A DNA stretch of 63,999 nt, filler included, from Sanchytrium tribonematis (lineage: Eukaryota), in NCBI GenBank assembly GCA_018985235.1. It is 6 parts of 6 records of this genome, joined end to end, with 100 filler letters (N's around TTAATTAATTAA, not from the genome) between each part and the next. Parts side by side here need not be neighbours in the genome. Positions count along the whole stretch, not along the records: positions 6,789 to 13,459 come from JADGIG010000506.1; 5 more parts are not named here. One strand, written 5' to 3'. The notes under the pieces are model-generated. The model made no database searches. It was not told the origin of the DNA and worked only from the letters and a program-made list of their open reading frames with translations. Numbering within the stretch: the first letter of the stretch is position 1; every line of letters starts with the position of its first letter. Below, in pieces: positions 91 through 58,379 of the stretch. Both the position numbers and the translations under genes were made by a program.

Positions 91-2149
91 TTATTCATGA
101 GATTTTTTTCTAAATTTGAGTTTATCGCTTTTGGCACGCTGCTCATGCATATCTTCTATATTATTAAGTGAAAATAACGAGGGACTGGGTATAAAAAAAT
201 TATTGGCAATAGCCTGCTTTGCTGTTAATCTCTTTTCAGGTTCAACATGCATAAGCCCTTTAATTAGTTCAATTTGATTTGATTCGAGCTCTCTCATCGC
301 CAGTTCTTTAACTTCACGTCGTTTTGATTCTCGACAATGTTCCGCAGAGTACAATAAAAACGACCAAGGGTAATCACATTTCTTTAAATAGCCAATATTT
401 TCGTCGGAAAAAAAATCTAAAAAATTACCGACAAGTTCCAGTTCTGAATTTCCTGAGAATGCGGATGTCATTAATAAGAGTTCATACAAGATGCACCCCG
501 CGGACCATAAATCAATTTCAATTCCATACTTAGTTGTTCCAAGAACAAGTTCTGGAGCACGGGTCCACAGGGTTACAACTCTGTTGGTAGCATTTAATTC
601 TTCAACTCCTAAAACATCAGGATTTTGTTTTCTTAAAACTTTAGCAAGTCCAAAATCTCCTATTTTTAAAATGCCACTAGAGTCAACCAAAATATTAGAC
701 AATTTCAAGTCCTATATTAATATTCATTACCCTATGTACAATGCCCTTGCAGTGGATATAATCAAGTCCTTGTAAGAATTGAAACATTATTGAACAAATC
801 AAATCTAGAGGCATTCTTTTTTCAAACGAATGCACCAAGCCTACTAGATCAAAATTGCAATAGTCTAACACTGAATAAATGGAGCTAGTACCAGCACCAA
901 TCTCATGCTGTTTACAGATATTTACGTGGTCGAGTTGCATTAGAAATTTTGCTTCGCGCATCGTAGTAGTTGGTATATGTCCATTATTCCGATTCGTTCG
1001 TTTCAATGCGACTTTTACTAGCTCGGAATCAAATGTTGGATAGGCTTTCCATACCTGGCCATATCTTCCTTGACCAATACAAGCCTCCCGCTTATATTTA
1101 CTTCCGAAAGTATTAGATGATTTGCCTTCATATTGTGGAGATGTCGGTGTGAATTTTGATTCTACATTGGTATCTTCTTTGATGTCGGAATCGTTCTGCT
1201 TCTTTATGTCAGTGGATTCTTTTCTTTTCTTACTAGGTTCTTCTACTTCGGCTTTGCGTTTGCTATTTTGAACTGGTGTTGAAAACTCTTTGCTAGACTC
1301 CACTTCAAGAGTCTCGACGTGACTTTCGTTTGCCTTGTGCATAATCGAGTTCTTTGACCATCCAGATTTAGATCTTGGAGCTCTTGGTTTTCGATAACGA
1401 CTGGCTGGTCGCGAATTTTGCTTGTTATCTTTACTTTCACTGGCATTATCTTTAAACGAGTCGACACTGAAATATTTTTGAGTCGTGACTTTCTCCGGTG
1501 AGATTTTGTTTTCCATCTCTGAATTTTCTAGCTTTTCTGTGTATTTTTCGTCTTTTGATCGAGCAACCGGGCTTTGAATTTGACGAGTCTCGTTTGGTAG
1601 CGTTCTTAAGTTCGATTCTATTTGATTTCTAATAATTTCTCTAGCTTGGGATCTTAAATTTGGTTCGAATCGCCTCCTACCACGCTCGTTTGAATATGAA
1701 TTTTGATTTGGTCTATTATTAGTTTGTCGGACATAATCTATACTCTCTTCAAAATATCTATCGTGGGGCCTATTGTTAGTATGCCTATTCCTCTCGTCCC
1801 TTAAATAAGTACTTCTATTGTCGCGACCACCTCCACCCTCTTCGTACCTTAATCTACCTTCATTGTTTCGATTATATCCAGATCTATTGTCAATGTATCT
1901 GCCTCTTCCTGGCGATTCCTCATTTCGACGAACATCCCTAGCCCTATTCTGATTCCGGTCATCATATGAACGGCCCCGAAATAGTCTTTCGCCTCTATCC
2001 TCAAAATACTGTGCTCTATCGCCGCTTTCGCTATAATAGTGAGGTTGTTCATTTGACCTAAGAGAATTGCTTCTTATGTTCGATTGGTTATTGCTAGAGC
2101 CACCAAATCTGCTATTGTAATGTACTCGTCCTCTGTTCCTGTAACGCAT
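91..2149 (-). CDS. CTD-kinase-type cyclin-dependent kinase (CTK1/CDK12/BUR1-like), R/N-rich N-terminus; join(731..2149,91..711), 679 aa
   Basis: GQGRYG loop, PTTTMRE, DFGLAK, TNRVVTLWTRAPEL; removing a 19-nt intron restores HRDLK. Confidence 0.85.
712..730 (-). other. 19-nt spliceosomal intron GTAATGAATATTAATATAG
   Basis: Excision joins CAT AGG | GAC TTG AAA = HRDLK catalytic loop. Confidence 0.93.
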
Positions 2150-4941: not shown

Positions 4942-5791
4942 ATGAGTGAAACTAAGACTAGTAACTTTAGAAATCAAGCAATTTCTTTTCTTTCTGGCGG
5001 TGGTGGTGGAGTGGCACTAACTCTAGTGGGCCATCCATTTGATTTGGTTAAAGTCAGGGTACAAAACAGTTCTTCTTCAGTAACTCAAGTTGTTTCGGAA
5101 GCATATAAATCTGGCGGCATTAAAGGATTTTATAGAGGAATATCTGCCCCAATAGTGGGAGTTACTCCAATCTTTGCTGTATGTTTTTGGGGTTATGAAG
5201 TGGGAAAGGTAAAGTTTATTCATATAGGACTTTTCTAGGACTCTGTGGGGAAAACAAGATTTAGACATAAATATGATAATGTTTGCTGGAGGATTTAGCG
5301 CTCTGCCAACCACACTTCTGATGACTCCAATTGAACGAGTTAAGGTAATGTTGCAAACTCAGGCAAATTTAAAAATTGGAGATATATTTAAGCAGACTGG
5401 CGTACGAGGTTTATACAAAGGAACAATGGCCACTTTACTGCGTGACTGCCCAGGTTCAGTTGCTTACTTTGGTGCATATGAAGTAGTCAAAAAATGGCTA
5501 ACTCCAAGTGATGGTACATTAAGCATTCCGGCAGTATTGACAGCAGGTGGTTGCGCTGGTATTGCCAATTGGGCTGTTGCAATTCCGGCCGATGTTCTTA
5601 AAACTAGATTACAGGCTTCGTCCCACTCCTCAATTGTTGCGGTTTTCAATGAGTTAATTGCAGCTGAAGGATTTAAAGGACTTTTTAGAGGTTTGGGTCC
5701 TGCAATGTTAAGAGCATTTCCAGCCAACGCTGCTTGCTTTTTAGGAGCAGAAGTTACCCGATCAGCCTTGAATGGAGTGTGGCCAGCGTGA
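4942..5791 (+). CDS. Mitochondrial carrier, carnitine/acylcarnitine (CRC1/SLC25A20)-like; join(4942..5208,5228..5791), 276 aa
   Basis: Three Px[DE]xxK carrier motifs (HPFDLVK, TPIERVK, IPADVLK), RAFPANAA; frames joined by a 19-nt intron. Confidence 0.88.
5209..5227 (+). other. 19-nt intron GTAAAGTTTATTCATATAG
   Basis: Excision puts exon 1 in frame with the 5273..5791 ORF (15 open codons in between). Confidence 0.88.
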
Positions 5792-6688: not shown

Positions 6689-6788
6689 NNNNNNNNNNNN
6701 NNNNNNNNNNNNNNNNNNNNNNNNNNNNNNNNTTAATTAATTAANNNNNNNNNNNNNNNNNNNNNNNNNNNNNNNNNNNNNNNNNNNN
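6689..6788. other. Artificial contig-joining spacer (N44-TTAATTAATTAA-N44)
   Basis: Same 100-nt layout five times; the core has stops in all six frames. Confidence 0.97.
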
Positions 6789-8231
6789 TCCCAATTTCTG
6801 TGCGAATTGAATGAGATTTGAACAATCTGGGGAAATAATATTCGTCATGGTGCATTTGGTCTTTAATGTAGTCATTTGGTTTAGGTACATGACGTTATTT
6901 GACAATAAACATTTTGTAGTTGATGTAAAGCCTGTCAAATCTTTAATTTGGATTTCTTTAATTTGCGTATTCACGATTTCAAACTGAGTCATACTCGTAT
7001 TTACCACTAATTTGCCACTTAAAGAAGTGTTGGACATTTGAGCAAGTTTAATTGTGCTTGGAAATATCGGAGTTCCTCCTAAATACGAATTATTATATAA
7101 ATATAAATTCTTTAATTTTGAAGGAAAAAGACCCACTTCTCCACTTACATTGTTATTGGCAATCCCAAATTGAACGAGGGAGTCTGGTAGAAAAGAGGGA
7201 AAAGGTCCATTGATACTGTTAAAAGACAGCAAGATGATCGAGGCATTTTTTGGAATTGCAGTTGAATTTAATTGGCCTGTTAAATTCAATTTTTTAAATT
7301 CAAATTTGTCAACAACAGCATTCGGACCAGTGGTACAAAGTACATAATTGTTGTTATTTGTTGGCGTGGTTGGAGTTCTGTAGTCATAATTACAGCAATT
7401 GCTAGAAAGTCTTGCAAACATTTGGGGCTGTACCTGGTCCATATTCAGACCTCTTGCAAAATTTACTAGATCAGGACAATCATTGCTTAATAATCCTGTC
7501 ATTGTGCACTTTGTAGCAAGCGTAGCATCATAAAATATGGGATTTTTGGATATATCGCAACCTGCTAATGCTGCCATATTTTGAATGTTAAAACCAGTTA
7601 ATTGATTGTCTACCAACTTCAATGTGGTCACCGTACCCACAGTAATGGTTCCATTGAGTTTGTTTATGCTCAAATCCAAATAATCTAAATTATTTGTTAT
7701 TGTAAGATTCGTGCCAGTCAAACTATTGTTCTTCACAGTAACATAGGACAAAGTTGGTGGTAATGCAGGTAACTCACCAATAAAAAAGTTTGATTCTGCA
7801 TTGAAAGTCACGATATCTGTTGGAAGAGCCGGAATAACTCCTTCAAATAGATTGGAACCGATTTGAATATTCTTTAGATTGGGTTGAAATTGGGTTATAG
7901 TCCCATTCAAGAGGTTTTTTGTAGCAATAAACGTTGTTAAGGATGCAGGAAGGGTCGGCCATGTTCCAGTTATAAAATTGCTTCCAATATCTAGACTTGT
8001 GAGGGTTTCTGGGAGAGATGAGAAGTTCATAGGTCCGGACAGTCCCAAGTTATTAAAATTGATGGTCAAAATTGTGGTACCAGAGCAAGTTATTTGTGAA
8101 GCGGAGCAGCAATCGCTTTTCAATTGCGCGTAAATAACTGGTCTTGAGAAGTCCAAATTGACGGACTTGGCAAGACTCACGATATTGGAGCACTCTGCTG
8201 TAATGGAAAAGACTGAAGACCAGAATAACAT
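6789..8231 (-). CDS. Secreted/surface modular LRR protein, 3'-truncated
   Basis: Short hydrophobic N-terminus, LxxLxLxxNxLxGxxP repeats, three Cys-capped modules (ECSNIVSLAK, DCPDLVNFAR, DCSNLIQFAQ). Confidence 0.85.
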
Positions 8232-8703
8232 GACGTTCGAGCGGGTGGCTTTTATTTTTTGAAATTGTTTACTTGTGTTTCATTGGTTAGATCTAATTAT
8301 CGTAATAAATGGTAAGGACAAGGCTTTTTGAAAGTATTAAAAGAAGTTTTTAATCAGTAAATCAAAAATATTGACGCGTTTATTCAATTTTTAAAGGATC
8401 AATTTTCTGAGTCCCATATCGTTTTGAGCCACTTTTTAAAAGCCTTTTCATTACTTTTTAAAACATCTTTACCATTTCTTTCTGTAAACTTCTAAAGATT
8501 CACGCCCTCACACGTTGTCACATTCAGCTTTTATCTTTCACAATCAATTGTCTCAAAAATAGTTTCATTCATTCTATATGGTCCCATAAATCTCCTTTAC
8601 TACCCCATCTCTCTAATTCCCATTCTATCCAATTGATTGGCCAACCCACGTGCATTTCAATCGATCTCTACGCTCAAATGCCCCAGATTGCAATTGTTTA
8701 AAA

Positions 8704-11251
8704 ATGGTCAATTTTACCATTGAACAAATCCGTGAATTAATGGACAAACCCATTAACATCCGTAACATGTCTGTCATCGCCCACGTTGACCATGGCAAAT
8801 CCACATTAACAGATTCCCTAGTTTCCAAAGCAGGTATCATTTCCACTGGTAAATCCGGAGAAATGAGATACACCGACACCCGTGCTGATGAAGCAGAGCG
8901 TGGTATCACCATCAAATCCACTGCTATCTCCATGTACTTTGAAATGGCTAAAACCGACTTGGTAGATGTCCAAGAAAAGACAGAATCCAATGACTTTTTA
9001 ATCAATTTAATTGATTCCCCGGGTCACGTTGATTTCTCTAGTGAAGTCACAGCTGCATTACGTGTCACTGATGGTGCCCTCGTTGTCGTAGATACCATTG
9101 AAGGTGTCTGTGTCCAAACAGAAACTGTTTTACGTCAAGCATTAACAGAAAGAATTAAACCCGTTTTATGTGTCAACAAAGTCGACAGAGCCCTCTTAGA
9201 ACTCCAAATCGAGAAAGAAGAACTCTATCAAAATTTCCAACGTGTCGTTGAATCTGTCAATGTCATTATTTCCACCTATATGGATGAGAAATTAGGAGAT
9301 GTTCAAGTCTACCCAGACAAGGGCACAGTCGCATTTGGAAGTGGTTTACATGGATGGGCATTCACTCTCCGTCAATTTGCCAATCGATATGCTACTAAAT
9401 TCGGTGTTGATTCTGGTAAAATGATGTTGAGATTATGGGGTGAAAATTACTTTAATCCTAAAACTAAGAAATGGACCACTAAATCACAAGATGCAGACGG
9501 TAAGCCATTAGACAGAGCATTTAACATGTTTGTATTAGATCCAATCTACAAATTATTTGATTCCATCATGAATGGTAAATCTGAAATGGTATCCACCATG
9601 TTGGAGAAATTAGAAATCAAATTAAAACCAGATGAGAAAGAATTACAAGCTAAAGCACTTTTGAAATGTGTGATGAAGAAGTTTTTACCTGCTAGTGAAG
9701 CCTTGCTAGAAATGATTGTCATTCATTTGCCATCTCCACATAAAGCACAGCAATATCGATGTGAAACATTGTATGAAGGACCTATGGATGATGAATGCGC
9801 TATTGGCATCAGAAATGTAGATCCAAAAGCACCACTGATGTTGTATGTCTCTAAAATGGTACCAACCACCGATAAAGGTCGATTTTATGCATTTGGACGT
9901 GTCTTTAGTGGCACAGTCAGAGCAGGTCAAAAAGTGAGAATTCAAGGACCTAATTACCAAGTTGGTAAAAAAGATGATTTATTCATTAAATCTGTTCAAC
10001 GTACTGTTTTAATGATGGGTAGAGGTGTAGAAGCCATTGAAGATTGTCCAGCTGGTAATATCATTGGATTGGTTGGAGTAGATCAATTTCTAGTCAAATC
10101 AGGTACCATTACCACCAGTGACACAGCCCACAACATGAAAGTGATGAAATTTAGTGTATCCCCAGTCGTGCGTGTCGCAGTAGAAGCTAAAAATGCAAAT
10201 GATTTACCCAAATTAGTAGAAGGATTAAAAAGATTATCCAAATCAGATCCATGTATTCAAGTCCTTACTAGTGAATCTGGTGAACATATTGTGGCAGGTG
10301 CTGGTGAATTACATTTAGAAATCTGTTTAAAAGATTTAGAAGAAGATCATGCGTGTATCCCAATTAAAGTATCTCCACCTGTTGTCGCTTATCGTGAAAC
10401 GGTACAAGAATTATCAGATCGTACTTGTTTAAGCAAATCTCCCAACAAGCACAATAGAATATTCATGCAAGCAGCTCCAATTACAGAAGAATTAAGTCGT
10501 GAAATAGAAGCAGGTAAAATCACCCCTAGAGATGACCCAAAAACACGTGGTAGAATATTAGCAGATGACCATGAATGGGATTTAAATGAAGCTCGTAAAA
10601 TTTGGTGTTTTGGACCAGAAACCACTGGTGCTAATTTATTAGTAGATTGTACCAAAGCTGTCCAATATTTGAGTGAAATTAAAGATTCTTGCGTGGCTGC
10701 TTTTCAATGGGCTACTAAAGAAGGTGTATTATGTGATGAAAATGTGAGATCTGTCCGATTTAATGTATTGGATGTGGCATTACATGCAGATGCCATTCAC
10801 AGAGGAGGTGGTCAAATCATTCCAACGTGTAGACGTGTCTGTTACGCATCTATGTTGACTGCTAATCCATGTTTACAAGAACCTATTTATTTAGTAGAAA
10901 TACAATGTCCAGAACAAGCCATGGGTGGTATTTATGGCGTATTAAATAGCAGAAGAGGCCATGTGTTCTTTCAAGAACAGAAAATGGGTACACCTCTTTA
11001 TAATATCAAGGCATATTTGCCTGTGATGGAATCATTTGGTATTTTTAATTTATTTAGGATTTAGTGCAGATTTAAGAGCAGCTACGGGTGGACAAGCATT
11101 TCCACAAAGTGTGTTTGATCATTGGCAATTAATGGGAACAAGTGCTATTGAAGAAGGTACTTTGGTGAATAAAGTGGTATTAGGCATTAGAAAGAGAAAG
11201 GGATTAAGTGAGAATATTCCAGGATTGGAGAATTATAATGATAAATTGTGA
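8704..11251 (+). CDS. EFT2: Translation elongation factor 2; join(8704..11038,11058..11251), 842 aa
   Basis: MVNFT start, AHVDHGKST, diphthamide motif [11 protein letters not shown]; intron removal restores ESFGFSADLR. Confidence 0.98.
11039..11057 (+). other. 19-nt intron GTATTTTTAATTTATTTAG
   Basis: Excision gives TTT G|GA TTT AGT GCA GAT and a full-length 842-aa eEF2. Confidence 0.95.
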
Positions 11252-11278: not shown

Positions 11279-12343
11279 TTATTGAATTTGACGACTTGAA
11301 TGAATTGCGGCTGATTCTGCATTCTCAAATTCATCAGAAAATTCTAATTTTTTAATGATTTCCAATTCCATTTGTTTAAATTGTACATCTTTAACCCCAC
11401 TCACAATTAAATCACCAATTTGAAATGCTGTATTATCTAATGACCAGATATTGACAAATATTTTATAATATTCACGATTATTTATCACAATATATATAGC
11501 AGTTGTATCACCTGTATCACCGTATCCATTGTATCCACTTAAAACACCAATATATGCATACATTTGATTTGGATGATTTTCACCCAATGACTTTAAGAGT
11601 GGTACGGGATTGCCAAATGGATCCAAATTAATTTCAAATCCATAGTCATCTTTTTTGCCATAAATCTGCAGTTTATTCGGAATAGTGATTTCTTTATTCT
11701 GTACCCTTCTTACATCAAAATCATGGCTATAACAACTTACAACTGTACTTCCATCATCATGTGAAATTCTATTAATAAATTCCACCTTCTTTCGCACGCA
11801 ACCATTTGGAGCAGGCATTTGTGAGCACATTTCGATATAAGAATTGAAATCTGTGGATTCTAATCTTAAAATCTTTCCAAATGAATTTCCATTTTCAGAT
11901 TGGGGACTAAAAATAACCTTGGACGAGGTATATTGTCCATCTGCTAATTCACGACTAGCACACATCCAATTTAGTTGCATAGATAGCATCTTTTGAATAT
12001 AGCATTGGACCACGACTTTATTGCCTTTTTTTAATTTGAAATTTCTTTCATGAATAGTAGTTTCATATTGCGCATCAACATCACTAACTTGACCAAATGA
12101 GTATTTTTCATCTATCTCGTCGCTATTTATTTGAATAGTCGCTAATTTAATATATGACCCGAAACAATTCAAACAACCAGGCTTTTTATAAACAGACACT
12201 GTTGGTATTTCATCACTTTGAAATTGGACAATGTAAGGTCGCAAATTCATTCCTACATTTTTATTAAAATCATAAAGAAAATTGTATTTTTCTGATTTGC
12301 ATTGTAAATGAATACAAATGAAGATTGCTAAAATAAAAAGCAT
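11279..12343 (-). CDS. Orphan secreted protein, paralog A (probable start MLFILAIFICI)
   Basis: Signal-peptide-like N-terminus; shares motifs with neighbour 12443..13444. Confidence 0.7.
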   Translation of the reverse strand: MLFILAIFICIHLQCKSEKYNFLYDFNKNVGMNLRPYIVQFQSDEIPTVSVYKKPGCLNCFGSYIKLATIQINSDEIDEKYSFGQVSDVDAQYETTIHERNFKLKKGNKVVVQCYIQKMLSMQLNWMCASRELADGQYTSSKVIFSPQSENGNSFGKILRLESTDFNSYIEMCSQMPAPNGCVRKKVEFINRISHDDGSTVVSCYSHDFDVRRVQNKEITIPNKLQIYGKKDDYGFEINLDPFGNPVPLLKSLGENHPNQMYAYIGVLSGYNGYGDTGDTTAIYIVINNREYYKIFVNIWSLDNTAFQIGDLIVSGVKDVQFKQMELEIIKKLEFSDEFENAESAAIHSSRQIQ

Positions 12344-12442
12344 TTCAAGGGGAATCTCCCCAAGTGATCTTTGATTCACTGATAAAAAAGATAGGTAAAC
12401 AGCGTGGACAGCCAATATACGCTGCAGGGATTCATTATCAAT

Positions 12443-13444
12443 TTATTGAAATAAATGAGATAAATAAGTTGCTGCTTCTAATGTAGATGTAAATGATTTG
12501 TGAATATAGGATACAGATACGCTCTTGATCCTTTTATTCAAATCCTCATCACTTCCAATCACCCATTCACCAATTTCAAATATCCAATTCACATGATTAT
12601 ATTCTGTCATTTGAATCCTATAATACTCATTTGGACTTGTCACAATATAAATAGCATTCATTAATTCAAATTCGAAATAAGCACCTATAAATGCATACAT
12701 TGGATTTAAATGATTTGGCAGCAAAGACACCAAATTCCCATTTATATCCAATTTCTTTGAAATCAATGTCAATTGCATTCTACCATGTAATTCCCATTCA
12801 CCTTGCTCTACTCTTTCTGCTCTAAATGGTACATCACTATAATACGCATGACATGACACTACAGAATTGTCATTTTGATGAATAATAGCCATTCTTGAAT
12901 CCATTTTAAATAATTCACGCACTGGCATGGAATTGGATGTCATGATTTTAGCATATAAATGATCATCTGTTGCTTCTAATTTCATATATCGACCATCTAT
13001 TTCCGAATCTTGTGAATAAGTATTGTAATTTGCAATTGAATGAATATATTTCCCATTTTCATATGCACGAATAGAGCATACCCAATTGAATTGTATTAAT
13101 GGTGCTTTGATGATGGTACATTTTAATGATGAGATTTGAAAGGATCTATTTGTAAATGTATCTATTTTCATTGTATATCCATTTAATAGAGATATGATTT
13201 CATTGAATGTATATTTTTCATTCTCTACATCTTTATTAATTGTTAAAATGGCCAATAATTCATGATTTGATTTATAAACATGCAAATGAGTCTCAATTAA
13301 TTTCATTTCGTAATCACCTATACGTCTCATTTGATTATATTGTAAATCAATCATATATTTGCGATTTAATAAATATTGGATTGGATTTTGATTATGAGTG
13401 CATTTCATTAAAATGGCAAATTGGAATACTAACAACAATTGCAT
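12443..13444 (-). CDS. Orphan secreted protein, paralog B
   Basis: MQLLLVFQFAILMKC signal-like; shares NWxC, VVSCxx, MYAxIG and AIYIV...EYY blocks with paralog A. Confidence 0.7.
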   Translation of the reverse strand: MQLLLVFQFAILMKCTHNQNPIQYLLNRKYMIDLQYNQMRRIGDYEMKLIETHLHVYKSNHELLAILTINKDVENEKYTFNEIISLLNGYTMKIDTFTNRSFQISSLKCTIIKAPLIQFNWVCSIRAYENGKYIHSIANYNTYSQDSEIDGRYMKLEATDDHLYAKIMTSNSMPVRELFKMDSRMAIIHQNDNSVVSCHAYYSDVPFRAERVEQGEWELHGRMQLTLISKKLDINGNLVSLLPNHLNPMYAFIGAYFEFELMNAIYIVTSPNEYYRIQMTEYNHVNWIFEIGEWVIGSDEDLNKRIKSVSVSYIHKSFTSTLEAATYLSHLFQ

Positions 13445-13459
13445 TTCGGATTTAAAGGA

Positions 13460-13559
13460 NNNNNNNNNNNNNNNNNNNNNNNNNNNNNNNNNNNNNNNNN
13501 NNNTTAATTAATTAANNNNNNNNNNNNNNNNNNNNNNNNNNNNNNNNNNNNNNNNNNNN
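13460..13559. other. Artificial contig spacer
   Basis: N-run with TTAATTAATTAA core. Confidence 0.97.
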
Positions 13560-13720: not shown

Positions 13721-16700
13721 TTACTGTGTGCGTTGTTCATATGCCTTGATCATATCACTTTGTCCCCCACTCTGACTAAATGCATATCCAGATCTCTTTT
13801 TAATTTGAATATGTTTCACTTTCTTGACAATGTTTTGAATACGTTCTCCATTTTGACGTACCCCACTTTGTCCATTTGTTTGCATTTCCTGTATAATATG
13901 ATAACTGTCATATCCATAATGTCGCTTATAATATTTCCATGCAATATCCCGTGACAATGCCAATGCAGGCACAATCACACAAATACTCCAAAATAATCCA
14001 GATCCATATAATTCACTCGATATTCCAAATAATTCCACGCCCATATTCAAAGTAGGCCCTATACTACTAAAAGCAGGTAAAAATAGAATCCAAACAAATA
14101 ATGATCCAAATATAGCAATATAAGCCCAAATCGTCCACCAACTCGTCAACAAGGCTGCTTTTCCAGTCACGACAGTCAATACAACTGTATATAAAGTACA
14201 TCCAATATACCACAACCCACCTACATTATTTTAAATTACTATTCACATTATCCTTTTTACCACCTTGAATATGCTGTGAATTATCATGATAATTAAATCC
14301 CATTAAATAAAATACTGCAAAATAACAAATTAACGAGTGATAAATGCCATTTAATGCAATACCCCAAAAGGATTTAGAATTAAAAAAGTGTTGATGTTGT
14401 CCATAATGGTATAATTGAGGATATTTTAATAAATTATTAGAATGAATAAATTGTTCAAATATACCAATATAAAGGGGTTGAAAAGCCGTAAAAAATAAAT
14501 TATACGCTGCCAATGACCATGATTCATAAATAGTTTGACCTGTAAATCCATTTTGAAATGCAAACCACAATTGCGTAAATTGAAGTGCAATATTCTTGTA
14601 AAAACAATATAAAATTAATTTGGATATTCTGTTGTAGGCCCATGTGCCATGTACGAGTAATAATTTCTGTAAATATCTAAATTGAGCAATAGCCACATCA
14701 CTAGCACGTGCTGCTTGAGTGCCTTCTAATCCATTAATGCCAATTCCAACATGTGCAGCTTGAATCATGCCTACATCATTGGCACCATCTCCAATGGCTA
14801 ATGTGAGTGTTTTCAAGTGCTTCTTGACTAATTTAACCACCAATGCTTTTTGTAATGGACTCACTCTACAACAAATAACAGATTGACACAAACAAGCTAA
14901 TCTCAAGAAATCTAATTCAAATTCACTTTCTAATGCATATTTGAGTGCTTTACCAGTAACTACCAATGCTAATGGTGATTTACTAGTGTCTAAATCATCT
15001 GATTTGTATGGATTACCAGTGAAAAATGAGAATTTAGAAGGGGTAATTTCACTTGGAAATACGGGTAAATTCCGACTTGATTTCACCTTGGTTAATTGCG
15101 TATCTAAAAATGATTTAAATTCTTCTTTTGTATCCACATCACATTGCATTAAATCCATATCTCCATTTAACAATTTACAACTAAATCCAATATTAATGGC
15201 AGTTTCTAATCTGTCTCCTGTTAAGACCCATATGCGAATACCTGCTTGGATTAAATTATAAATGGTATCTGGTACACCATCTTGTAATTTATCTTCAATT
15301 GCAGTACATCCCAATAAAAATAAATTGGTTTCTATTAATTCTGCACATTTATCCAATTCTTCTTGTCGATTTACAAGAGTCGTGGATGCTTTTTCATATA
15401 ATTTAGACCATTCTGTGTATTCTTGTTGTGGTATTTCTCTACTGGCTAAACACAAAGTACGCAATCCTTCATTGGCATATTCACTTAATGCTTGATTGGT
15501 GATTTCTATAAATGGATTCTGATTGGATAATCTTTCTAATATCACAGTATCAGCACCCTTGCAATACACCACTAATTTACCATCTGGATTTCTGACAATG
15601 ACACTCATTCGTTTTCTAGTTGAATTAAATTCATTCACTTGTAATATTTGATATTCTTTTAATTCATTCTTGACTAGGATTTGAATAGAATGTGGTTTAC
15701 GATTCATAAAGATGTAATCTAATAATCTAGCACCCTTGACTAGTGCTGATTCATCTGGACTACTAGCTTGATAAATAATTTGATTGAGTGAATTTGGATC
15801 TTGAATATTTAATTCTGTCCCATCTGGCATTTCTGGAATGACAGTGTGACATGCACTTAATAATAACAAGAATTCATGAACAATTTGACCATGTTTGTCA
15901 TTGGATTTAGAATCTAATTTTAATTGGTCAAAATCATGAATGGGTAAATTGCCATCTTTTTGAGGTCTATCTGAGTAGCATTTACCAGCAATGCATGCTT
16001 GTCTGAATTCCATGATATTACAGGTTAATGTGCCTGTTTTATCACTAAAAATGTACTTGATTTGACCCAATTCTTCAACCAATGAACTGGTTCTACAAAT
16101 TGCATGGGATTTAATGGGAGGATAATACATGTCATTATCACTGTTAATGAGATATGCAGTGACTGCCTTGACAATTTCCATAGTGACCATTAAAGAAATA
16201 GGAATAAGGGAGTTGAATAAAATTAAAAATGTGGTAAAATTCTTGATGAATTCTAATGCGTAATTGGATGGGTCATTTTTGATAAGATTGGCAGGATCTT
16301 GTAGATACCATCTATCATCTGTATTATCTGACTGATTATTACTTGAAATGGTGATTAATAAGCCAATAGAACAGAATAATGACATGAAAATCATCAAAAT
16401 AAATAAAAACACAATTTGGCGATTTGTCTTCTTTTCTACATCTGTTCTTTTGATAGGTGCACTAGTGGCATTTCTCATTAATTTGGTTTCATGACCAGTG
16501 AAGATAATCATGCCTTGGATCCATTTGGTGTTTCTTAATTGACATCCACGTAAAAGCATCTGTTCTGGTCCTAATGGGCATTCCATGTGTCCGTCTCTAT
16601 TATTAGATGGTTTAGATCTATTTAGAGTGGCTATTCTTGGATTATTGTGGCCATCTGGGGTTAATATGCCATGCTCATTAATTTGACCGCCTTCTAATTC

Positions 16701-17635: not shown

Positions 17636-19447
17636 ATGTCATCAGAGTGTTCTAGCTTGAGCAATCTAGCAAAATCATTAAATCACCCACAATATGCAGT
17701 ATTTGAATGTCCTCAAAACCAATCCCATTCAAATTATACCCTTTGGAATGCTTTGGGTGTACAATTAAATGTTAACTACTCGGTCATTGCAATAGATTGG
17801 AGCAATAAGGGATTAAATGGAACTATTGCCAACACATTGGGTTCATTGAATCATTTGACCGTTTTGAATTTGAACAACAATCAAATTATAGGGGTCCTTC
17901 CTGCACAAATGCCTCTCTCTTTGGTCACATTGAATATAGGAAACAACATATTACGTGGTTCCTTGCCCAATATGCAGAATATGGTGACTTTGAATATCCA
18001 ATACAACCAATTTTCCGGGTCATTGCCCAATTTCCCAAATTTGGTAAGGCTATACGCAAATTACAACAGTCTAAGTGGAAATATCACAACATTGCCTCTC
18101 AATTTAGCACAATTAGGCATCAGTTTTAACAAGTTTAGTGGTGCATTTCCCGCCATATCTAGCAAATATAATTATTTGCAAAATATTTACATCAATTACA
18201 ATGATTTCACAGGAACCTTCTCACTTGCTTCATCAAATACGCAAGCCATTTCAATAGATAACAATAGGTTCACTTCATTACAGTTGACAGGCTACAATTT
18301 AGCATTGTCACGGCTTTATGGGTTTAAAAATCAATTGACAAATGCGAATTTATTGAGTGCATATAACTTGATAACATTGGATCTTAGTAGCAATTTATTA
18401 ACAACTGCGCCTGAATTACTAACAAACACACCAGTTTCTATCCAATTGAGTAACAACCAAATCACCTATGTTTGGATGCCACCTTCTGCAACGTTTTTTG
18501 ATGCAGGAAACAATCAAATTACATCCATGTCGCCATATATTCCAAGTGGATTACAAAAATTGGTTTTATCCAACAATGCCATTACTCAGAATTTGACAAA
18601 TGTAGTGTTTCCATCATCCTTGACGGAATTATTTTTAACAAATAACTCATTCAGTGGAACATTAAATGTCACTTCAGCTGTAAAATCAATCGATGTGTCG
18701 TATAATCAATTGAATAGCGTCATTATTGGGGATACAAGCAATTTGTTTATTGGTAATTGCAATTTAAAGTTTAATCCACTAGATCCTTCTAAATTGGGAA
18801 GTTTGACAAAAAGGTGTTTATATTCTCCTTTGAAAGCACCAGCTACAACAAGTACAACAGCAGCAACTTTGAGAACTAGTCAAATGTCATCTAGCAGTCA
18901 CTCGGATCAAACATCCTCCTTGATTGCAACTTTCCAAACTACAGCAAATCCTGCAACATCCTCAAAATACCCATTCTCCACTCATTCTACATTTGCGTCA
19001 ACATTTGTCGATGGGCACCAAGTATTATCCATGCTGGATCAATCCTCTTCCAGTGAAACGACTGAGAATTGGTCTTCTGACAATGTTGCATCTGATTCTG
19101 CCAAATTGATACCCACGCGTGTATTATTCCGTCATTCATCAACATTCCAATCTATAAATGATACCCAATCACCATTATGGACTACTGAAATCAATGGTGC
19201 ATTCACGGATACCCCGCTTCCATTACAAACATCTCAAAATGGAAATGACTCGACATTTAACAATCAAAATGCATTTATGGGCATGTTGGGTGGTAATCTG
19301 ATCTATATCCTGGTTGGTTCTGTCATTGCGCTCATGATTATCTTGGTGATATTAGGAAAAGTGATTAAACGACCAAAAATCAATAGTAAATTTGCCAGAA
19401 ATTCAAGCAATGGTACTCTACAAACGACTGCTACATCACAGAAATAA
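17636..19447 (+). CDS. LRR receptor-like membrane protein (LRR ectodomain, S/T stalk, one TM, short basic tail)
   Basis: LRR consensus, Ser/Thr-rich region, TM LIYILVGSVIALMIILVIL followed by KVIKRPK. Confidence 0.88.
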   Translation: MSSECSSLSNLAKSLNHPQYAVFECPQNQSHSNYTLWNALGVQLNVNYSVIAIDWSNKGLNGTIANTLGSLNHLTVLNLNNNQIIGVLPAQMPLSLVTLNIGNNILRGSLPNMQNMVTLNIQYNQFSGSLPNFPNLVRLYANYNSLSGNITTLPLNLAQLGISFNKFSGAFPAISSKYNYLQNIYINYNDFTGTFSLASSNTQAISIDNNRFTSLQLTGYNLALSRLYGFKNQLTNANLLSAYNLITLDLSSNLLTTAPELLTNTPVSIQLSNNQITYVWMPPSATFFDAGNNQITSMSPYIPSGLQKLVLSNNAITQNLTNVVFPSSLTELFLTNNSFSGTLNVTSAVKSIDVSYNQLNSVIIGDTSNLFIGNCNLKFNPLDPSKLGSLTKRCLYSPLKAPATTSTTAATLRTSQMSSSSHSDQTSSLIATFQTTANPATSSKYPFSTHSTFASTFVDGHQVLSMLDQSSSSETTENWSSDNVASDSAKLIPTRVLFRHSSTFQSINDTQSPLWTTEINGAFTDTPLPLQTSQNGNDSTFNNQNAFMGMLGGNLIYILVGSVIALMIILVILGKVIKRPKINSKFARNSSNGTLQTTATSQK

Positions 19448-19526: not shown

Positions 19527-19572
19527 ATGCGCTCATTTGGTTTAAACGTGAAAATAGACCCATTCTTTAGCA

Positions 19573-20229
19573 ATGTCAAACGAATGTGCAACATTGAAAA
19601 ACTTGGCAGTCTCGTTAAACCATCCAAATCAAACTGCATTCAATTGTCCTGCAACAGTTACTCAAATCAATACGGTATGGGTGACTTTGGGGGTGACTAC
19701 TGATTCAGCTGTTGGTAGACCCATTACATCCATTAAATGGTCAAATACCAAGCTATCTGGCTCTCTAACGCAGTCAGCACTCTCAAGTTTCACCAAATTA
19801 CAGATTTTAGATCTCTCAAACAATGCAATAACAGGTCCTCTCCCTTCTTTTCCCTCTACTTTGACCACTCTCTACTTGAACAGCAATCAATTCACTGGTA
19901 CATTACCACAACTCCCATCTGGTATGATCACACTATCTGTTATGTATAACTCATTAACTGGCACACTTCCCTCTCTCCCAGCATCTCTGACCTCTTTATC
20001 CGTCACCAATAACCAGTTTAGTGGTACATTACCACCATTGACATCCCTCACCTACTTTGGTGCCCAATCCAACAATTTTGAGGGTCCTTTACCAAATATT
20101 CCAAATATGGTCTGGTTATATCTCCAAAACAACAAATTAAGTGGTCCTATCCCCAATTTACCATCCACACTCATAGAATTGGGTCTAGCAAATAATGCAT
20201 TCAATGGCACTTTCCCATTGATCAGTAAT
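19573..20229 (+). CDS. Tandem LRR paralog, 3'-truncated
   Basis: MSNECATLKNLAVSLNHP matches MSSECSSLSNLAKSLNHP; regular LRRs. Confidence 0.85.
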
Positions 20230-20329
20230 NNNNNNNNNNNNNNNNNNNNNNNNNNNNNNNNNNNNNNNNNNNNTTAATTAATTAANNNNNNNNNNNNNNN
20301 NNNNNNNNNNNNNNNNNNNNNNNNNNNNN
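20230..20329. other. Artificial contig spacer
   Basis: N-run with TTAATTAATTAA core. Confidence 0.97.
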
Positions 20330-20418: not shown

Positions 20419-21943
20419 TTACTTTACAGGTACTAAGGGTGCAACATTTTCATGCAACATATTGTGCTCTTTACCTTCAAATTGATTCAAATATCTTAAG
20501 CCTAAAGTTTTCCATACCTGCTCTACTTTCGAAACTAATTCATCGATTCTTTCTTCTGTATGAAAAGGACTAGGTGTAATTCGCAATCGTTCAGTAGCAA
20601 CTGGTACAGTAGGATGATTAATTGGTTGGACATAGATACTATATTTTTCCAACAGCATATTTGAAGCCTTCAAGGCATGTTTTGCAGAACCCACATACAA
20701 TGGCACAATGTGGCTTGGATTTGGAATTACAGGAATACCAGCAGCAGCGAATTTTGATTTTGTTAATTGTGCATGCTTCTGTTGCAAATAACGTTCTTTC
20801 TGCGATTTTTTCAAGTAATTTACGGAGGCTGTTGCAGCGCAGGCCACAGGAGGGGGTAAACTAGTTGTAAAAATAAATCCGGGTGCGTAAGATCTCACAA
20901 AATCAACACATCTAGCAGATGCCGCCAAATAACCTCCGACACATCCGTATGCCTTTCCTAGTGTTCCAGTAATCATATCAATTTGATCCATAAGATTCAA
21001 ATACTCCGCAACACCGGCACCGGTTGCTCCGTACATACCCACAGCTAAATAAGAATTAATTACCATGAACTTCATCTAGAAAAGTGAGCGCATTGTAACG
21101 CTTGGCCAAATCAAGAATTTCTTGGATTTTTCCAACACTTCCACACATACTGTATATAGACTCAAATGCAATTATTTTTGGAGCTGAAAGAGGAACAGAT
21201 TGTAATAATTCTTCCAAATGAGACATGTCATTGTGTTTAAAAATCTTTTTATGCGCTCTTGAGTATCTGATACCATGAATCATAGAAGCGTGGTTCAAAG
21301 AGTCACTAAAATAGTAACACTCCGGAAGAGAGGAACCGATTGTAGATAAAATTGCATCGTTGGCTACATAACAAGAAGTAAATACAAGCGCAGATTCCTT
21401 CTTGTGCAAATCTGCCAAACTGTTTTCTAGTTCAACATGCAACCTGCTTGTACCTGAAATATTTCGCGTTCCTCCTGCACCAGTGCCATATTTTTTGGTT
21501 GCGTCAATCATGGCGTTTGTGGTTATAGGATGACGTGACATTCCAAGATAATCATTTGCACACCAAACAGTGATTTCATCTCTTTTGTTATATTTGATCA
21601 ATTCAGCTCTAGGGAAATTATCAGCTAGACGAGTAATTGTATTAAAATAACGATAAGAATTGTCATTTTTCTTTTCTTGTAATTTACCGTCATAAAAACT
21701 CTCATAATCAAATTTCATCCATTCAGAGGCGGGACATTCATTAGGAGGTACACCTTTTGATGATTTTAACTGTCCTTCTGATGGATGACCCACTGAGGAA
21801 TTATCTTTTTGTGTTTTTGTTTGAGTTCTAATAAATCTTTTTGCTACAGGACATGCACCAACAAAAGAGTGAAGAAGTCCGGATCTTTGGCTAATATATT
21901 TCAATTCCTTTTTACAAACATTTGTTAAAAATGGGCAAGACAT
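20419..21943 (-). CDS. HEM1: 5-aminolevulinate synthase; join(21064..21943,20419..21044), 501 aa
   Basis: CP heme-regulatory motifs, [25 protein letters not shown]; intron removal restores DEVHAVGMYG. Confidence 0.95.
21045..21063 (-). other. 19-nt intron GTAATTAATTCTTATTTAG
   Basis: Excision gives CAT G|CT GTG = DEVHAV. Confidence 0.94.
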
Positions 21944-22068: not shown

Positions 22069-22503
22069 CTAAATTGGTTTTATTTTAAAATGCAAACTCA
22101 TAATGCTTAAAACTAAAGATTTCAAGTCTTGTACCAGATAGTAGTATATCCTCAGTCCTTCTGGATCTTTTGAGGCATTGACTTCATTCAAAGAGCCTAT
22201 CTTTGATGTTCTACCTTTCCAAGTATCTTCGCCTAGTTTTATTACTAATTCCATTTTGCCAATTTTGTCTGGAGACGGCCACAATTTTTCATCTTCTCGA
22301 GTTATCTCAGCATCTTCTATGATACGTAAAAACTCTGAAAGCGTTAGTTTGGACAATGCTACTTGCTTTTTGATGACTTGGTCATTTTTATAATTAGAGT
22401 TATTAGAATATTTAAGAATACCATCCTTTATGGAAAATTGAAAATACTCGTGGCCAAATTCACCTTTATGTCCCGAATAAAATTGCAAATAAAAATCTGA
22501 CAT
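22069..22503 (-). CDS. MAGO: Mago nashi (exon junction complex core)
   Basis: [39 protein letters not shown]-terminus. Confidence 0.95.
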
Positions 22504-22532
22504 TGACTTTCTCAGAAAGTTTCAAAAAATAT

Positions 22533-23057: not shown

Positions 23058-23340
23058 TTATTGTCCGCCAACTTGCATACTAAATAAGTTAAAATTACGG
23101 CATAGCATCAATAACGTCATCTTCACCCATTCCCAACGAATCTGGAGAATCATCATCCCGAATTTGAACACCATCATATGTAAATTTGAATCCACCTTTG
23201 TCAATACCGTTTTTTTCAGCCCATGCTTTCAAGATTTTTGCGAAAGGTGTTGTTTTCTTAACCTTGAAAGTGAGTTCTCCATGACCATTCGAATTGACTT
23301 TGATATTGATAGTATTATTCTCGCCAGCATTAGTGTCCAT
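23058..23340 (-). CDS. SMT3: SUMO (Smt3); join(23099..23340,23058..23079), 87 aa ending QVGG-Q
   Basis: INIKV...FKVKKTT...F.YDG...LGM.EDDVIDA; the diglycine appears only after splicing. Confidence 0.92.
23080..23098 (-). other. 19-nt intron GTAATTTTAACTTATTTAG
   Basis: Excision gives ATG CC|T ATG CAA GTT GGC GGA CAA TAA. Confidence 0.94.
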
Positions 23341-23591: not shown

Positions 23592-23894
23592 TTATTTTTC
23601 TCTCAAAAATTGCTCCAGGTCAGATGCAATTTTAAACAAAGGTTCTGCATCTTGACGAATCTTTTGTATCGCATACTCGATATTCCCTATTGGGGTCAGT
23701 GGAATTCCCTCAAAAGATTTTATTATTTTTATCCTGTGACCGACAATTGTTATGCCCATCTCTTTCAAGTCTTGGTGATTCAGAAGTTTGTAGTTACGAT
23801 CATCTATTCCATACTCAAGAAATGCCCGTAGATATCTCGTCAAGTTTACGCTTTCCAAAGCTTCCTCCAATAAAACTTGTTTCATTTTAATCAT
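23592..23894 (-). CDS. Small SAM-domain protein
   Basis: LESVNLTRYLRAFLEYGID...DLKEMGITIVGHRIKII SAM consensus; start uncertain. Confidence 0.8.
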   Translation of the reverse strand: MIKMKQVLLEEALESVNLTRYLRAFLEYGIDDRNYKLLNHQDLKEMGITIVGHRIKIIKSFEGIPLTPIGNIEYAIQKIRQDAEPLFKIASDLEQFLREK

Positions 23895-38139: not shown

Positions 38140-39701
38140 TTACTCATCCCAATCCAGGTCGAGGTCCTGCATCTCACTCAAGCCAGTCAGTTTTTCTAAG
38201 TATTTTGGATTTTCTAATACATCTATTATAAATCCTATCCCATCACTATTGATTTTTTTCATTACAATTTCTGAACACGCGGTACATTTATCATATGCAT
38301 TTCCAAAAGATTTCATGTATGTGTTTTGACCCAAAAATAAACGAATTTGTTGAGGTGTCTCTCCTAATAGTTTCTTTGGCTCAGATTGTAGCATTGCAAT
38401 TAGAATTTCTGATATGAGTCCACTTGCTATAAAAGACAACCCTGGTCTAGTCACAGTACACTGTTGATCAAGAGTCCTGTCTTTAAGTGACTAAATGAAT
38501 AATAATTTACATTCACTGGAGCAACCACATCACTACAAAAATAGCATCCTTCTTCCTTAGAGTGCCTCAAAGCCAATAACGAGTCAAAACCTAGAGCTGC
38601 AGTTAAAACTAGTTTTTCCTCGTATCTACCAAGAACTGTAGGAAGCCACCTGGACTCTCTTGAGTCTGTTAATAGAAAAATAGTATCATTTGTTTTTATA
38701 AGTTTCCAAAGCATATCCACATTTTGTTTATCAACCGGATGATCCGGCATGGGTATTCGGAGTGATTCAGTATATATGGTACAATATGGTGCAATTTTAA
38801 GAATGTTTTCTTTTGCTGCAGCAACTTTGGGCTTACCAACATCTTCAACTGTGAACAGTGATTGACGAACAGGATTTGAATACGAGACAAGTCCCGAATC
38901 TACCAAAGTGAATGTAGTCACTCCCCAGCCTATTAGAGCCCGTATCACATTGCAACCCAACGTTCCGACTCCTAAAATAAGGCACCTAAGGCCCTTGTGT
39001 TTTTCCAGATCCAAATCAGGTACTAGCCTCCACTTCATAAGGGAGAGATTTAACATCGAAGCTTCATACACTAATGTTGTAGGGTCTAGTATGGATTTTA
39101 AATCTACAATTTGCAATTTATCAGGGTGTAAAGTTTTTTTGGGTATTCCTGGCTTAATTACTTTGTATGCGATTTGAGGCTGATGACTCGAATAGATGTT
39201 TACTATTTCGCCTTCTTTTGCGATGTTTAAAACATTTTGGACCAATATGGTAAAGTTTGCTTTCAAGGAATTTTTTACGACGTGTGAGTTTCCGTCATAA
39301 GAATGGACTTTCTTGAGATCAGAAAAATTAAATTTCTCAGGCTTAGTTTGCTCAAGTGTATTTTCAAGATTTAATATTTCGATATAGTAGATTTTATATT
39401 CGAAAACATAATTTTTAATATCTGCATAGACATGAAGCTCAAAAAAATTGTCAGCATCGAAAAGCGATTCGTCCGGAGAGCAATTCAGAAACAAATTTTT
39501 GCTGTCATGCACAATGAGTCTGCCAACTACACCATCCTTGGCTTTCATATTAAAATCTTGAATTCGTAATAACTGATTAATCATTTCAGCGTAAATAGTG
39601 ATTTCGGTAGTACGAAGTTTCCATTCATTGATTTTCTTATCGGCTAAGGTTTTGAAAAAAAGCGGATGAATCACAAAATGAAATTTCTTGAAATTGTTCA
39701 T
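38140..39701 (-). CDS. ATG7: Autophagy E1-like enzyme Atg7; join(38511..39701,38140..38490), 513 aa
   Basis: LNLSLMKWRLVPDL, GVGTLGC, SNPVRQ, DSRESRWLP; splicing restores DRTLDQQCTVTRPG. Confidence 0.93.
38491..38510 (-). other. 20-nt intron GTAAATTATTATTCATTTAG
   Basis: Excision gives GTG AAT | TCA CTT AAA GAC AGG, leading to the catalytic Cys motif. Confidence 0.92.
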
Positions 39702-44800: not shown

Positions 44801-46640
<1,840 letters not shown>

Positions 46641-48473: not shown

Positions 48474-50181
48474 ATGTGGACACGTTTCTTACTGCAAAGA
48501 AAACCTATTCGAGCCCATCTTTCTCAAAAATTTGATGTCCCCAATGCCCGAAGATTTAATTTTAAAAATTTGTTTGGCGGCCAACGAAATTATGGAACAA
48601 AACAATACCCAATTCATGTTATTCAACAAGAACAACATTCTTGGAAATCAGTTTTCCTTAGTTTGACCAAATTTGGTCTCAGTGCATTTGTTCTTATAAG
48701 TTTGGCTGGTATCATATTAGATCAATATGGAATGAGTAAGCAATTTGAATTTACGGTGCACGAGGCAGATGTGCCTAAAGAAAAGTTTGATTCAGTTGAG
48801 GGCTGTGATGAAGCAAAAGAGGCTCTGATGGAAATCGTGGAATTTTTGAAGTTCCCAGATAAATTTTTGTCACTCGGTGCTAAACTTCCTAGAGGTATAT
48901 TATTACAAGGCAGTCCTGGAACAGGAAAGACACTTTTGGCTAAAGCCCTGGCTGGTGAAAGCAATGTACCCTTTTATTTCATGTCTGGAAGCGAATTTGA
49001 TGAGATTTACGTTGGTGTCGGCGCTAAAAGAGTTAGGGAACTATTCTCTACTGCAAAAAAGAATGGACCAGCCATTGTTTTCATAGACGAATTGGATGCT
49101 GTTGGTGGAAAGAGGAACCCGAGAGACCAATCATATATGAGACAAACAGTGAATCAATTGCTTGTTGAACTAGATGGATTTAAGCCCTCAGATAATGTCG
49201 TAGTTATCGCTGCGACCAATAGCCCCGAAATGTTGGATAAAGCACTTCTTAGACCTGGTAGATTTGACAAAATTGTTGATGTTCCTTTGCCGGATGTTCG
49301 AGGGCGTGAAAGTATATTGAAAGTACATTCTAAAGGCATAAAAACAGACTTCGGAATCGACTATAAATTATTGGCAAAAACGACACCTGGATTTTCTGGT
49401 GCCGATCTGATGAATATGACGAACCAAGCTGCTATCATTGCTGCAAGAAACGGATCTCAAACCATTTCTATAAAAGATTTTGAACAGGCTAAAGATGAAA
49501 TAATAATGGGATCCGAACGTAAATCTGCTTTTATTTCACCTGAGAATAAGAAACTCACTGCTTACCATGAAGCAGGTCACGCTATAGCCGCATATTTTAC
49601 ATCTGGGGCTCTCCCCTTACACAAAGCTAGTATCATTCCTCGAGGCAGGAGCCTTGGAGTGACTGTTCAAGTCCCTGATGATGATAAGTTGAACTATACT
49701 AAAAAAGAATATTTCGCAATGCTAGATGTTTGTTTTGGTGGTCGTATAGCGGAGGAGATTGTCGCTGGACCTGAAAATGTAACAAGTGGTGCATATAGCG
49801 ACTTTCAAAAAGCAACCAAAATTGCTAGACAAATGGTGCTAGAAATGGGAATGTCGAAGGTTATTAGTATTTATTTAGGCCGGGATCAATCATTATTCGG
49901 AAGAAGACCTTTTGAAAATTTCATCTGCAACTAGAAACAGGCTTGAATCAGAAGTCAATGACATTTTAAATAATTCCTATAATAGAGTACAGACTATGCT
50001 CACATCAAAGAAAAAGGAGTTGGACAGCCTAGCTAACGCTTTAATCGATCGAGAAACTTTAACTAAGGATGAAATGATTTTAATTCTTCAGGGCAAGCAG
50101 CTACCTCCTCTAGAAACAAGATCTAAATCCAATATTATCCCAAGTCTTATTGGAAAGACTCCTACACTAATTACACAATAA
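48474..50181 (+). CDS. YME1: Mitochondrial i-AAA protease Yme1; join(48474..49859,49879..50181), 562 aa
   Basis: GSPGTGKT, FIDELDAVG, RPGRFD, HEAGH zinc motif. Confidence 0.93.
49860..49878 (+). other. 19-nt intron GTTATTAGTATTTATTTAG
   Basis: Excision gives GMSK|AGINHYSEEDLLKISSATR, in frame with the 49912 ORF. Confidence 0.88.
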
Positions 50182-51513: not shown

Positions 51514-51613
51514 NNNNNNNNNNNNNNNNNNNNNNNNNNNNNNNNNNNNNNNNNNNNTTAATTAATTAANNNNNNNNNNNNNNNNNNNNNNNNNNNNNNN
51601 NNNNNNNNNNNNN
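51514..51613. other. Artificial contig spacer
   Basis: N-run with TTAATTAATTAA core. Confidence 0.97.
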
Positions 51614-53671: not shown

Positions 53672-54848
53672 ATGATGAAATCAGACAAAAATGTTGAAAT
53701 TTACGAATCATTTGATCAGATGCATTTAAAGCCGGAACTATTAAGAGGAATATATGCGTTTAATTTTGAAAAACCATCTGCCATCCAAAAGAGAGCCATC
53801 ATGCCTATCACTGAAGGTAAAGACACTATTGTTCAGAGTCAATCAGGGACTGGCAAGACGGCAACTTTTAGTATCGGAATTTTACAAAGTATAGACACAC
53901 AATTGAGAGAGACCCAAGCTTTGATATTATCACCCACTAGAGAATTAGCCTCTCAAATTCAAAATGTGATTTTGGCAGTTGGTGATTATATGAATGTTCA
54001 ATGTCACTGCTGCATAGGTGGCACCAATTTAGGAGAGGATATAAGAACTTTGGATTACGGTGTTCATTGTGTTTCTGGCACACCTGGTAGAGTTTACGAT
54101 ATGATAAAACGAAAATCTTTGAGAACTAGACATATCAAATTACTAGTTTTGGACGAAGCAGACGAATTGTTAAATCAAGGCTTCAAAGACCAAATTTATG
54201 ACATTTACCGTTACTTGCCGCCAAATACTCAAATAATTGTGGTTTCTGCAACGTTACCTAATGAGGTCCTAGATTTAACCAAAAAATTCATGACTGATCC
54301 TGTAAAAATATTAGTAAAGCGAGATGAGCTGACTCTTGAAGGCATCAAACAGTTTTTTGTATCAGTGGAACAGGAATCTTGGAAGTTTGATACTCTATGT
54401 GATCTTTATGATACTTTAACAATTACTCAAGCTGTCATATTTTGCAACACTAGGAAGAAGGTGGATTGGCTTGCAGACAAAATGAGGGAGAATCACTTTA
54501 CTGTGGCAGCAATGCATGGCGAGATGGCGCAAAAAGAAAGAGATCATATTATGCATGAATTCAGACAAGGTTTAGCCAGAGTGTTAATTAGTACTGACAT
54601 TTGGGCTAGAGGTTTAGATGTTGGCCAAGTTTCTTTGGTTATAAATTATGACTTGCCATTGAATCGAGAGTCGTATATTCACAGGTAAACTTTTTTCATC
54701 TAGAATTGGACGATCAGGACGATACGGTAGAAAAGGTGTTGCCATAAATTTTGTCAAGACAGACGATGTCAAAATACTGAGAGATATCGAACAATATTAT
54801 AGCACTCAGATAGATGAAATGCCGATGAATGTTGTTGATTTGATTTAA
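53672..54848 (+). CDS. FAL1: eIF4A-III/Fal1 DEAD-box helicase; join(53672..54684,54704..54848), 385 aa
   Basis: [44 protein letters not shown]; splicing restores [13 protein letters not shown]. Confidence 0.93.
54685..54703 (+). other. 19-nt intron GTAAACTTTTTTCATCTAG
   Basis: Excision gives CAC AG|A ATT GGA CGA = motif VI HRIGR. Confidence 0.95.
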
Positions 54849-58279: not shown

Positions 58280-58379
58280 NNNNNNNNNNNNNNNNNNNNN
58301 NNNNNNNNNNNNNNNNNNNNNNNTTAATTAATTAANNNNNNNNNNNNNNNNNNNNNNNNNNNNNNNNNNNNNNNNNNNN
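58280..58379. other. Artificial contig spacer
   Basis: N-run with TTAATTAATTAA core. Confidence 0.97.

What the first reader, a model, noticed from the sequence alone, without database searches (positions are those of the whole stretch)
11050..11057. Branch point fused to the 3' splice site: invariant T-H-A-Y-N-T-A-G
Seen in sequence: the last 8 nt of the 13 introns are TAATATAG, TCATATAG, TTATTTAG (x4), TAATGTAG, TCATTTAG, TAATTTAG, TTATCTAG, TTACATAG, TCATCTAG and TTATGTAG. T at -8, A at -6, pyrimidine at -5 and TAG (never CAG) are invariant, and -9 is a pyrimidine in 12 of 13. This is a YTNAY branch motif at a fixed distance from the AG, with no polypyrimidine tract. It is anchored to the 3' end even in the 20-nt intron. 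Inference: branch A at -6, a 14-nt lariat loop, and little room for simultaneous U1/U2 binding or U2AF65. Stentor tiny introns are also described with an A six nt from the 3' end, so this would be convergence. Coordinates given are for the eEF2 example.
Basis: partly seen in the sequence, partly recalled or inferred. Interest (0 to 1): 0.8.

Follow-up and report, generated by a model that had tools for sequence, protein, structure and literature searches.

The report
19-base fungal introns, fixed branch site
Thirteen housekeeping genes of this algae-parasitising fungus (a sanchytrid) are each interrupted by a 19-20-base intron ending in the same eight-letter pattern, whose A likely serves as the splicing branch point; such tiny introns appear unreported in this group and would be the shortest known in fungi.

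Summary
Observation confirmed. The 13 introns exist: 12 are 19 nt and one is 20 nt, all GT..TAG. All 13 have T(-8), A(-6), Y(-5) and T(-3), against 9 of 356 AT-rich background AGs. Ten junctions are pinned by homology alone. The eEF2 tree places the window with Amoeboradix (Sanchytriomycota, 100/99). In relatives, gene calls that read into the introns give 20-21-nt introns that keep A at -6 in 7 of 7 informative cases, so the motif follows the 3' end. That A is the branch point is inferred; no RNA data were available. The geometry is known: Stentor has its branch A at -6, and Yarrowia has the same branch-to-AG spacing. The lineage is new: my literature searches found no report, and the published sanchytrid proteomes were called without an intron model. 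The Amoeboradix annotation lists U2AF65/35, BBP, U1-70K and Dbr1 but no Slu7, Prp18 or Prp28, so U2AF65 is not lost. Introns are one per gene and 3'-biased. This scan earlier noted tiny introns in Rozella and Neolecta, none in sanchytrids. Verdict: new member of a known kind.

The parts
11039..11057 (+). 19-nt intron in eEF2, phase 1; 3' octamer 11050-11057, predicted branch A at 11052
   Evidence: best-scoring GT/GC..AG choice against 5 homologues, 408 vs 380; position shared by 5 relatives
712..730 (-). 19-nt intron in a protein kinase, phase 0
   Evidence: Pfam Pkinase positions 1-122 end at the donor, 123 starts at the acceptor
5209..5227 (+). 19-nt intron in a mitochondrial carrier, phase 0
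   Evidence: frame joining; Pfam Mito_carr on both exons; a 28-nt alternative is not strictly excluded
14221..14239 (-). intron in a P4-ATPase flippase; 19 nt with the nearest donor (40 or 43 nt possible); the only one with a purine at -9
   Evidence: DRS2 loop length fits the longer options as well or better
21045..21063 (-). 19-nt intron in 5-aminolevulinate synthase, phase 1
   Evidence: exon 1 ends at residue 217 and exon 2 starts at 219 of 2bwn_A
23080..23098 (-). 19-nt intron in SUMO, phase 2, just before the C-terminal di-glycine
   Evidence: Pfam Rad60-SLD runs to 71/72 at the donor; splicing restores the di-glycine
38491..38510 (-). 20-nt intron in ATG7, phase 0; keeps A at -6 (position 15 from the donor)
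   Evidence: best of all choices against 20 homologues, 345 vs 331
45549..45567 (+). 19-nt intron in a MARK/Par-1 kinase, phase 1
   Evidence: exon 1 ends at 236 and exon 2 starts at 238 of MARK3; same position in P0252
47570..47588 (+). 19-nt intron in a class-III aminotransferase (ornithine aminotransferase-like), phase 2
   Evidence: Pfam Aminotran_3 coordinates are continuous across the junction
49860..49878 (+). 19-nt intron in YME1, phase 0, with a GTT donor; an internal GTATTT 12 nt from the AG would not restore the frame
   Evidence: best of all choices against 25 homologues, 298 vs 282; same position in P0265
50791..50809 (-). 19-nt intron in phenylalanyl-tRNA synthetase beta, phase 0
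   Evidence: exon 1 aligns to residue 509 of 3l4g_B right up to the donor; Pfam on exon 2
54685..54703 (+). 19-nt intron in eIF4A-III, phase 2, inside helicase motif VI
   Evidence: best of all choices against 6 homologues, 415 vs 378; same position in P0243-P0245
58139..58157 (+). 19-nt intron in a subtilase, phase 2
   Evidence: only GT within 14-60 nt of this acceptor; not pinned by homology

Best explanation
These are GT-AG introns of 19-20 nt in a sanchytrid fungus that all end in T-H-A-Y-N-TAG, and the A at -6 is likely the branch point used by a U2-type spliceosome. Shown: the introns, their boundaries, the motif, and that it follows the 3' end in 20-21-nt introns of relatives. Inferred: BBP/SF1 and then U2 snRNA (GUAGUA) recognise the U-rich yUnAy element and bulge A(-6). 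The 5' GU attacks it to form a 14-nt loop (15-16 nt in 20-21-nt introns) with a 5-nt tail. The AG is chosen by position, so no scanning or polypyrimidine tract is needed and Slu7/Prp18 would be dispensable. The weak donor (GTA[AT]T) is likely picked by its distance from the branch site rather than by strong U1 pairing, so U1 and U2 would have to bind in turn rather than side by side.
For: Motif statistics. Homology-pinned junctions for 10 of 13. Relatives: 6 of 11 stop-terminated read-through tails end at intron nt 20 or 21, and all 6 end [LF][IM]-stop, which back-translates to Y-T-N, A-T-N, stop; chance about 1e-6 for 5 distinct positions. P0011 reads through a 21-nt in-frame insert whose last codons fix C(-7) A(-6) Y(-5) G(-4) T(-3). 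A(-6) is the only internal A shared by all 13. The YME1 intron's frame-restoring donor is a GTT at 19 nt rather than a GTATTT at 12 nt. The Amoeboradix annotation lists Prp8, Yju2, Cwc25, Isy1, Prp17, Prp22, Dbr1, BBP and U2AF but has no Slu7 or Prp18 row. Slu7 is dispensable when branch-to-3'SS is 9 nt or fewer (PMC10158995 passage).
Against: No RNA or lariat data. No snRNA lies in the window, so U2 complementarity was tested with the canonical GUAGUA only. The relatives' tails assume that the stop is the intron's terminal TAG; a 25-nt intron with TAA at -8..-6 would also fit each tail, and the phase of P0125 is uncertain. Five tails stop earlier and say nothing about the 3' end. The flippase donor is ambiguous. 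Absences in the annotation table are weak: about half of the proteins are annotated, calls were intron-blind, and the KO/KOG ids are recalled. U2AF65 is present although there is no tract to bind.
Confidence: 0.85

Rival explanations
1. The branch A is placed by a ruler from the 5' splice site (position 14), and the AG merely follows, as described for myxozoan tiny introns.
For: 12 of 13 introns have one length, so position 14 and position -6 cannot be told apart. In myxobolids and Dicyema the putative branch As move away from the AG as introns lengthen (PMC13644364).
Against: In the 20-nt ATG7 intron position 14 is C and the A is at 15 = -6. The 20- and 21-nt introns of relatives keep A at -6 in 7 of 7 informative cases.
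Confidence: 0.05
2. T-H-A-Y-N-TAG is an extended acceptor signal read by U2AF or another protein, like the C. elegans TTTCAG, and branching occurs elsewhere or at variable sites.
For: U2AF65 and U2AF35 are retained in the relative. A second A-rich column lies at -10 (8 of 13). Invariant T(-3) is an acceptor feature.
Against: The pattern matches the yUnAy branch consensus in register, and U2 pairing is best with the bulge at -6. Five introns have no A at -10, and the eIF4A-III intron has no A between -15 and -6. The same -6 A is taken as the branch in Stentor and at the same spacing in Yarrowia.
Confidence: 0.07
3. The segments are not spliced: they are assembly or amplification errors, or pseudogenising insertions.
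For: No RNA holder was listed, so splicing was not seen directly.
Against: All are GT..TAG of one length in essential genes. Breaks occur at the same codon in independent relatives for eEF2 (5), eIF4A-III (3), MARK (1) and YME1 (1). The ATG7 position is shared with 13 of 125 other eukaryote gene calls.
Confidence: 0.02

Closest known systems
Heterotrich ciliate tiny introns: Stentor coeruleus (PMC9505925, parts 1-3 of 6 read) and Fabrea salina (PMC9004412, passages)
   Same: GTA start, AU-rich, nearly one length, branch A at -6 in both length classes, 5-nt tail; the commonest Stentor intron ends in an octamer that fits T-H-A-Y-N-TAG
   Different: 15-16 nt (3n) against 19-21 nt; Stentor's branch region has no strong consensus whereas T(-8) and Y(-5) are invariant here; Stentor introns are 5'-biased (Fabrea is 3'-enriched, PMC13685798 passage); unrelated supergroup, so convergence
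Fixed branch-to-AG introns of Yarrowia lipolytica, Trichomonas vaginalis and Giardia lamblia (PMC2483917, passages)
   Same: No polypyrimidine tract, branch site anchored to the AG; Yarrowia's 2-nt BP-AG distance puts the branch A at -6, as here
   Different: Strong ACTAAC/CTRACA consensus and a C-rich end against degenerate THAY and TAG; Yarrowia introns are long; Trichomonas and Giardia use 4 nt (A at -8)
Mikrocytos mackini 16-17-nt introns (PMC10245619, passages)
   Same: Parasite, uniform tiny length, conserved sequence
   Different: Rhizarian, spliceosome of 17-19 proteins with no U1 snRNA found; the sanchytrid relative keeps U1 proteins and U2AF
Chlorarachniophyte nucleomorph 18-21-nt introns (PMC6009652, passages)
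   Same: Same length range
   Different: No discernible branch A there, and about 3 introns per gene; here a fixed motif and at most one intron per gene in the window
Microsporidian, myxobolid and dicyemid short introns (PMC6349667 passages; PMC13644364 parts 1-2 of 3)
   Same: Opisthokont parasites with introns under 30 nt; Encephalitozoon has a branch consensus
   Different: Longer (about 25 nt in Encephalitozoon; median 22-27 in myxobolids); the myxozoan A is not 3'-anchored

Membership tests
U2-type spliceosomal intron | GT...AG ends whose removal restores a conserved reading frame | tested here: met
U2-type spliceosomal intron | branch motif able to pair with U2 GUAGUA with a bulged A | tested here: met
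   best register at -6 with the canonical U2 sequence; the organism's own U2 was not seen
U2-type spliceosomal intron | removal from RNA through a lariat branched at that A | not testable with these tools
   no RNA holder listed
U2-type spliceosomal intron | organism encodes the major spliceosome | tested here: inconclusive
   no snRNA in the window and no genome held; the relative Amoeboradix has Prp8, U1-70K, U2AF, BBP, Prp22 and Dbr1 rows
Fixed BP-AG introns (Yarrowia/Trichomonas/Giardia type) | constant branch-to-AG distance, no polypyrimidine tract | tested here: met
   13 of 13 in the window, 7 of 7 informative relatives
Fixed BP-AG introns (Yarrowia/Trichomonas/Giardia type) | strong WCTRAY branch consensus | tested here: not met
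   -9 is T 8 / C 4 / A 1 and -7 is T 7 / C 3 / A 3
Heterotrich-type tiny introns | 15-16 nt length | tested here: not met
   19-20 nt in the window, 20-21 nt in relatives
Heterotrich-type tiny introns | A fixed six nt from the 3' end across length classes | tested here: met
U12-type (minor) intron | RTATCCTT donor and TCCTTAAC branch consensus (recalled) | tested here: not met
   donors are GT[AT][AT][AT] with no CC; no such branch motif
Sanchytriomycota (host lineage) | groups with Amoeboradix gromovi in phylogeny | tested here: met
   eEF2 tree, 41 rows, clade support 100/99; eIF4A-III and MARK share 90% clusters with Amoeboradix proteins; single-gene tree only

The most novel reading that the evidence does not exclude
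Sanchytrids are a further independent origin of minimal introns and have the shortest introns in Fungi (19-21 nt). Their spliceosome has dropped the 3'-site scanning factors Slu7 and Prp18, and perhaps Prp28 and U1C, while keeping U1-70K, U2AF and BBP. It defines introns by a fused branch/acceptor octamer plus a 14-16-nt ruler, and the surviving introns sit at the 3' ends of genes, opposite to the usual fungal bias.
Probability: 0.35. Interest if true: 0.75.

Novelty: new member of a known kind. Interest (0 to 1): 0.6.

Why it matters
It adds a true fungal lineage to the short list of organisms near the lower size limit of splicing. It converges with Stentor on the same -6 geometry, which suggests a structural minimum (5-nt tail) for the second step. 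Relatives with 19, 20 and 21 nt give a natural length series in which 5' and 3' rulers can be separated, and the predicted co-loss of Slu7/Prp18 can be tested on existing assemblies. In practice, public sanchytrid proteins are truncated at these introns, which can bias gene-loss and phylogenomic conclusions for the phylum.

Tried and rejected
No whole genome was held, so there is no genome-wide logo or snRNA search. No RNA holder was listed; this is no evidence either way. The Rfam scan of the window found only a tRNA. A pattern scan of JGI metagenomes for the eEF2 junction found 0 stretches; the protein scan returned 80 loci, none above 81% identity, so no sanchytrid DNA was obtained. A pattern scan of prokaryote genomes gave 6 hits, none encoding eEF2/EF-G: chance. 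Selection for a stop codon as the cause of T(-8)/A(-6) was rejected: -7 is A in only 3 of 13 and never G, and a 19-nt insert already shifts the frame. False candidates 23775-23793 and 45527-45545 were rejected. Look-alikes +35812-35832 (21 nt, in frame, cap-binding protein CBP80) and -178..156 (23 nt) remain unresolved. P0256 was dropped as unrelated; P0266 stops without a tail and is uninformative; three tree rows (P0039, P0016, P0013) were skipped by my trimming rule. Literature: the sanchytrid searches and the tiny-intron searches listed no paper on sanchytrid intron length. Galindo 2021's main text has 'intron' once, in a reference title. Its large supplementary PDF and one table could not be read and may bear on this, and subscription journals are mostly not searched.

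Full report
What is in the window. It is gene-dense eukaryotic DNA of about 35% G+C, read with the standard code. A scan for the octamer and an independent frame-joining search locate 13 introns, one per gene: kinase, mitochondrial carrier, eEF2, flippase, ALA synthase, SUMO, ATG7, MARK kinase, class-III aminotransferase, YME1, PheRS beta, eIF4A-III and a subtilase (Pfam; names refined). Twelve are 19 nt and ATG7's is 20 nt. The eEF2 example spans 11039-11057, with the candidate branch A at 11052.

Noticed in passing
window, all 13 intron-bearing genes: One intron per gene, 10 of 12 in the 3' half (mean relative position 0.73), opposite to the usual 5' bias of fungi.
   Followed up: partly
window 53672-54848 (+), 22069-22521 (-), 33800-35917 (+): eIF4A-III, Mago nashi and a CBP80-like MIF4G protein are encoded in the window: exon-junction and cap-binding components are retained.
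   Followed up: no
P0251, P0125, P0266: Relatives are interrupted at positions where the window is not (MARK, eIF4A-III, YME1), so intron positions turn over within the clade.
   Followed up: partly
window 35812-35832 (+) and 156-178 (-): Two further GT..THAYNTAG segments (21 nt in frame in CBP80; 23 nt near the kinase 3' end) of unknown status.
   Followed up: partly
window 11279-13507 (-): Two long ORFs in the same frame are separated by a single stop codon at 12443-12445, with no convincing Pfam match; two genes or one broken gene.
   Followed up: no
window 6741-8279 (-), 17636-19447 (+), 19558-20277 (+): Three leucine-rich-repeat proteins, apparently a local family, without introns in the parts seen.
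   Followed up: no
window 62541-63407 (+) and 24903-26135 (+): A DDE_Tnp_4 transposase-like ORF, and an ORF with a C-terminal Herpes_UL52-type zinc domain, likely PrimPol (name recalled).
   Followed up: no
window 6689-6788, 13460-13559, 20230-20329, 51514-51613, 58280-58379: Five 100-base spacers made of two 44-N runs around a short linker: the window is joined from several contigs, so gene order across them is not meaningful.
   Followed up: no
PMC8371127 Supplementary Data 1, Amoeboradix sheet: No row for Prp28, U1C or Prp39 although U1-70K, Luc7 and Prp40 are listed: possible partial U1 reduction.
   Followed up: partly
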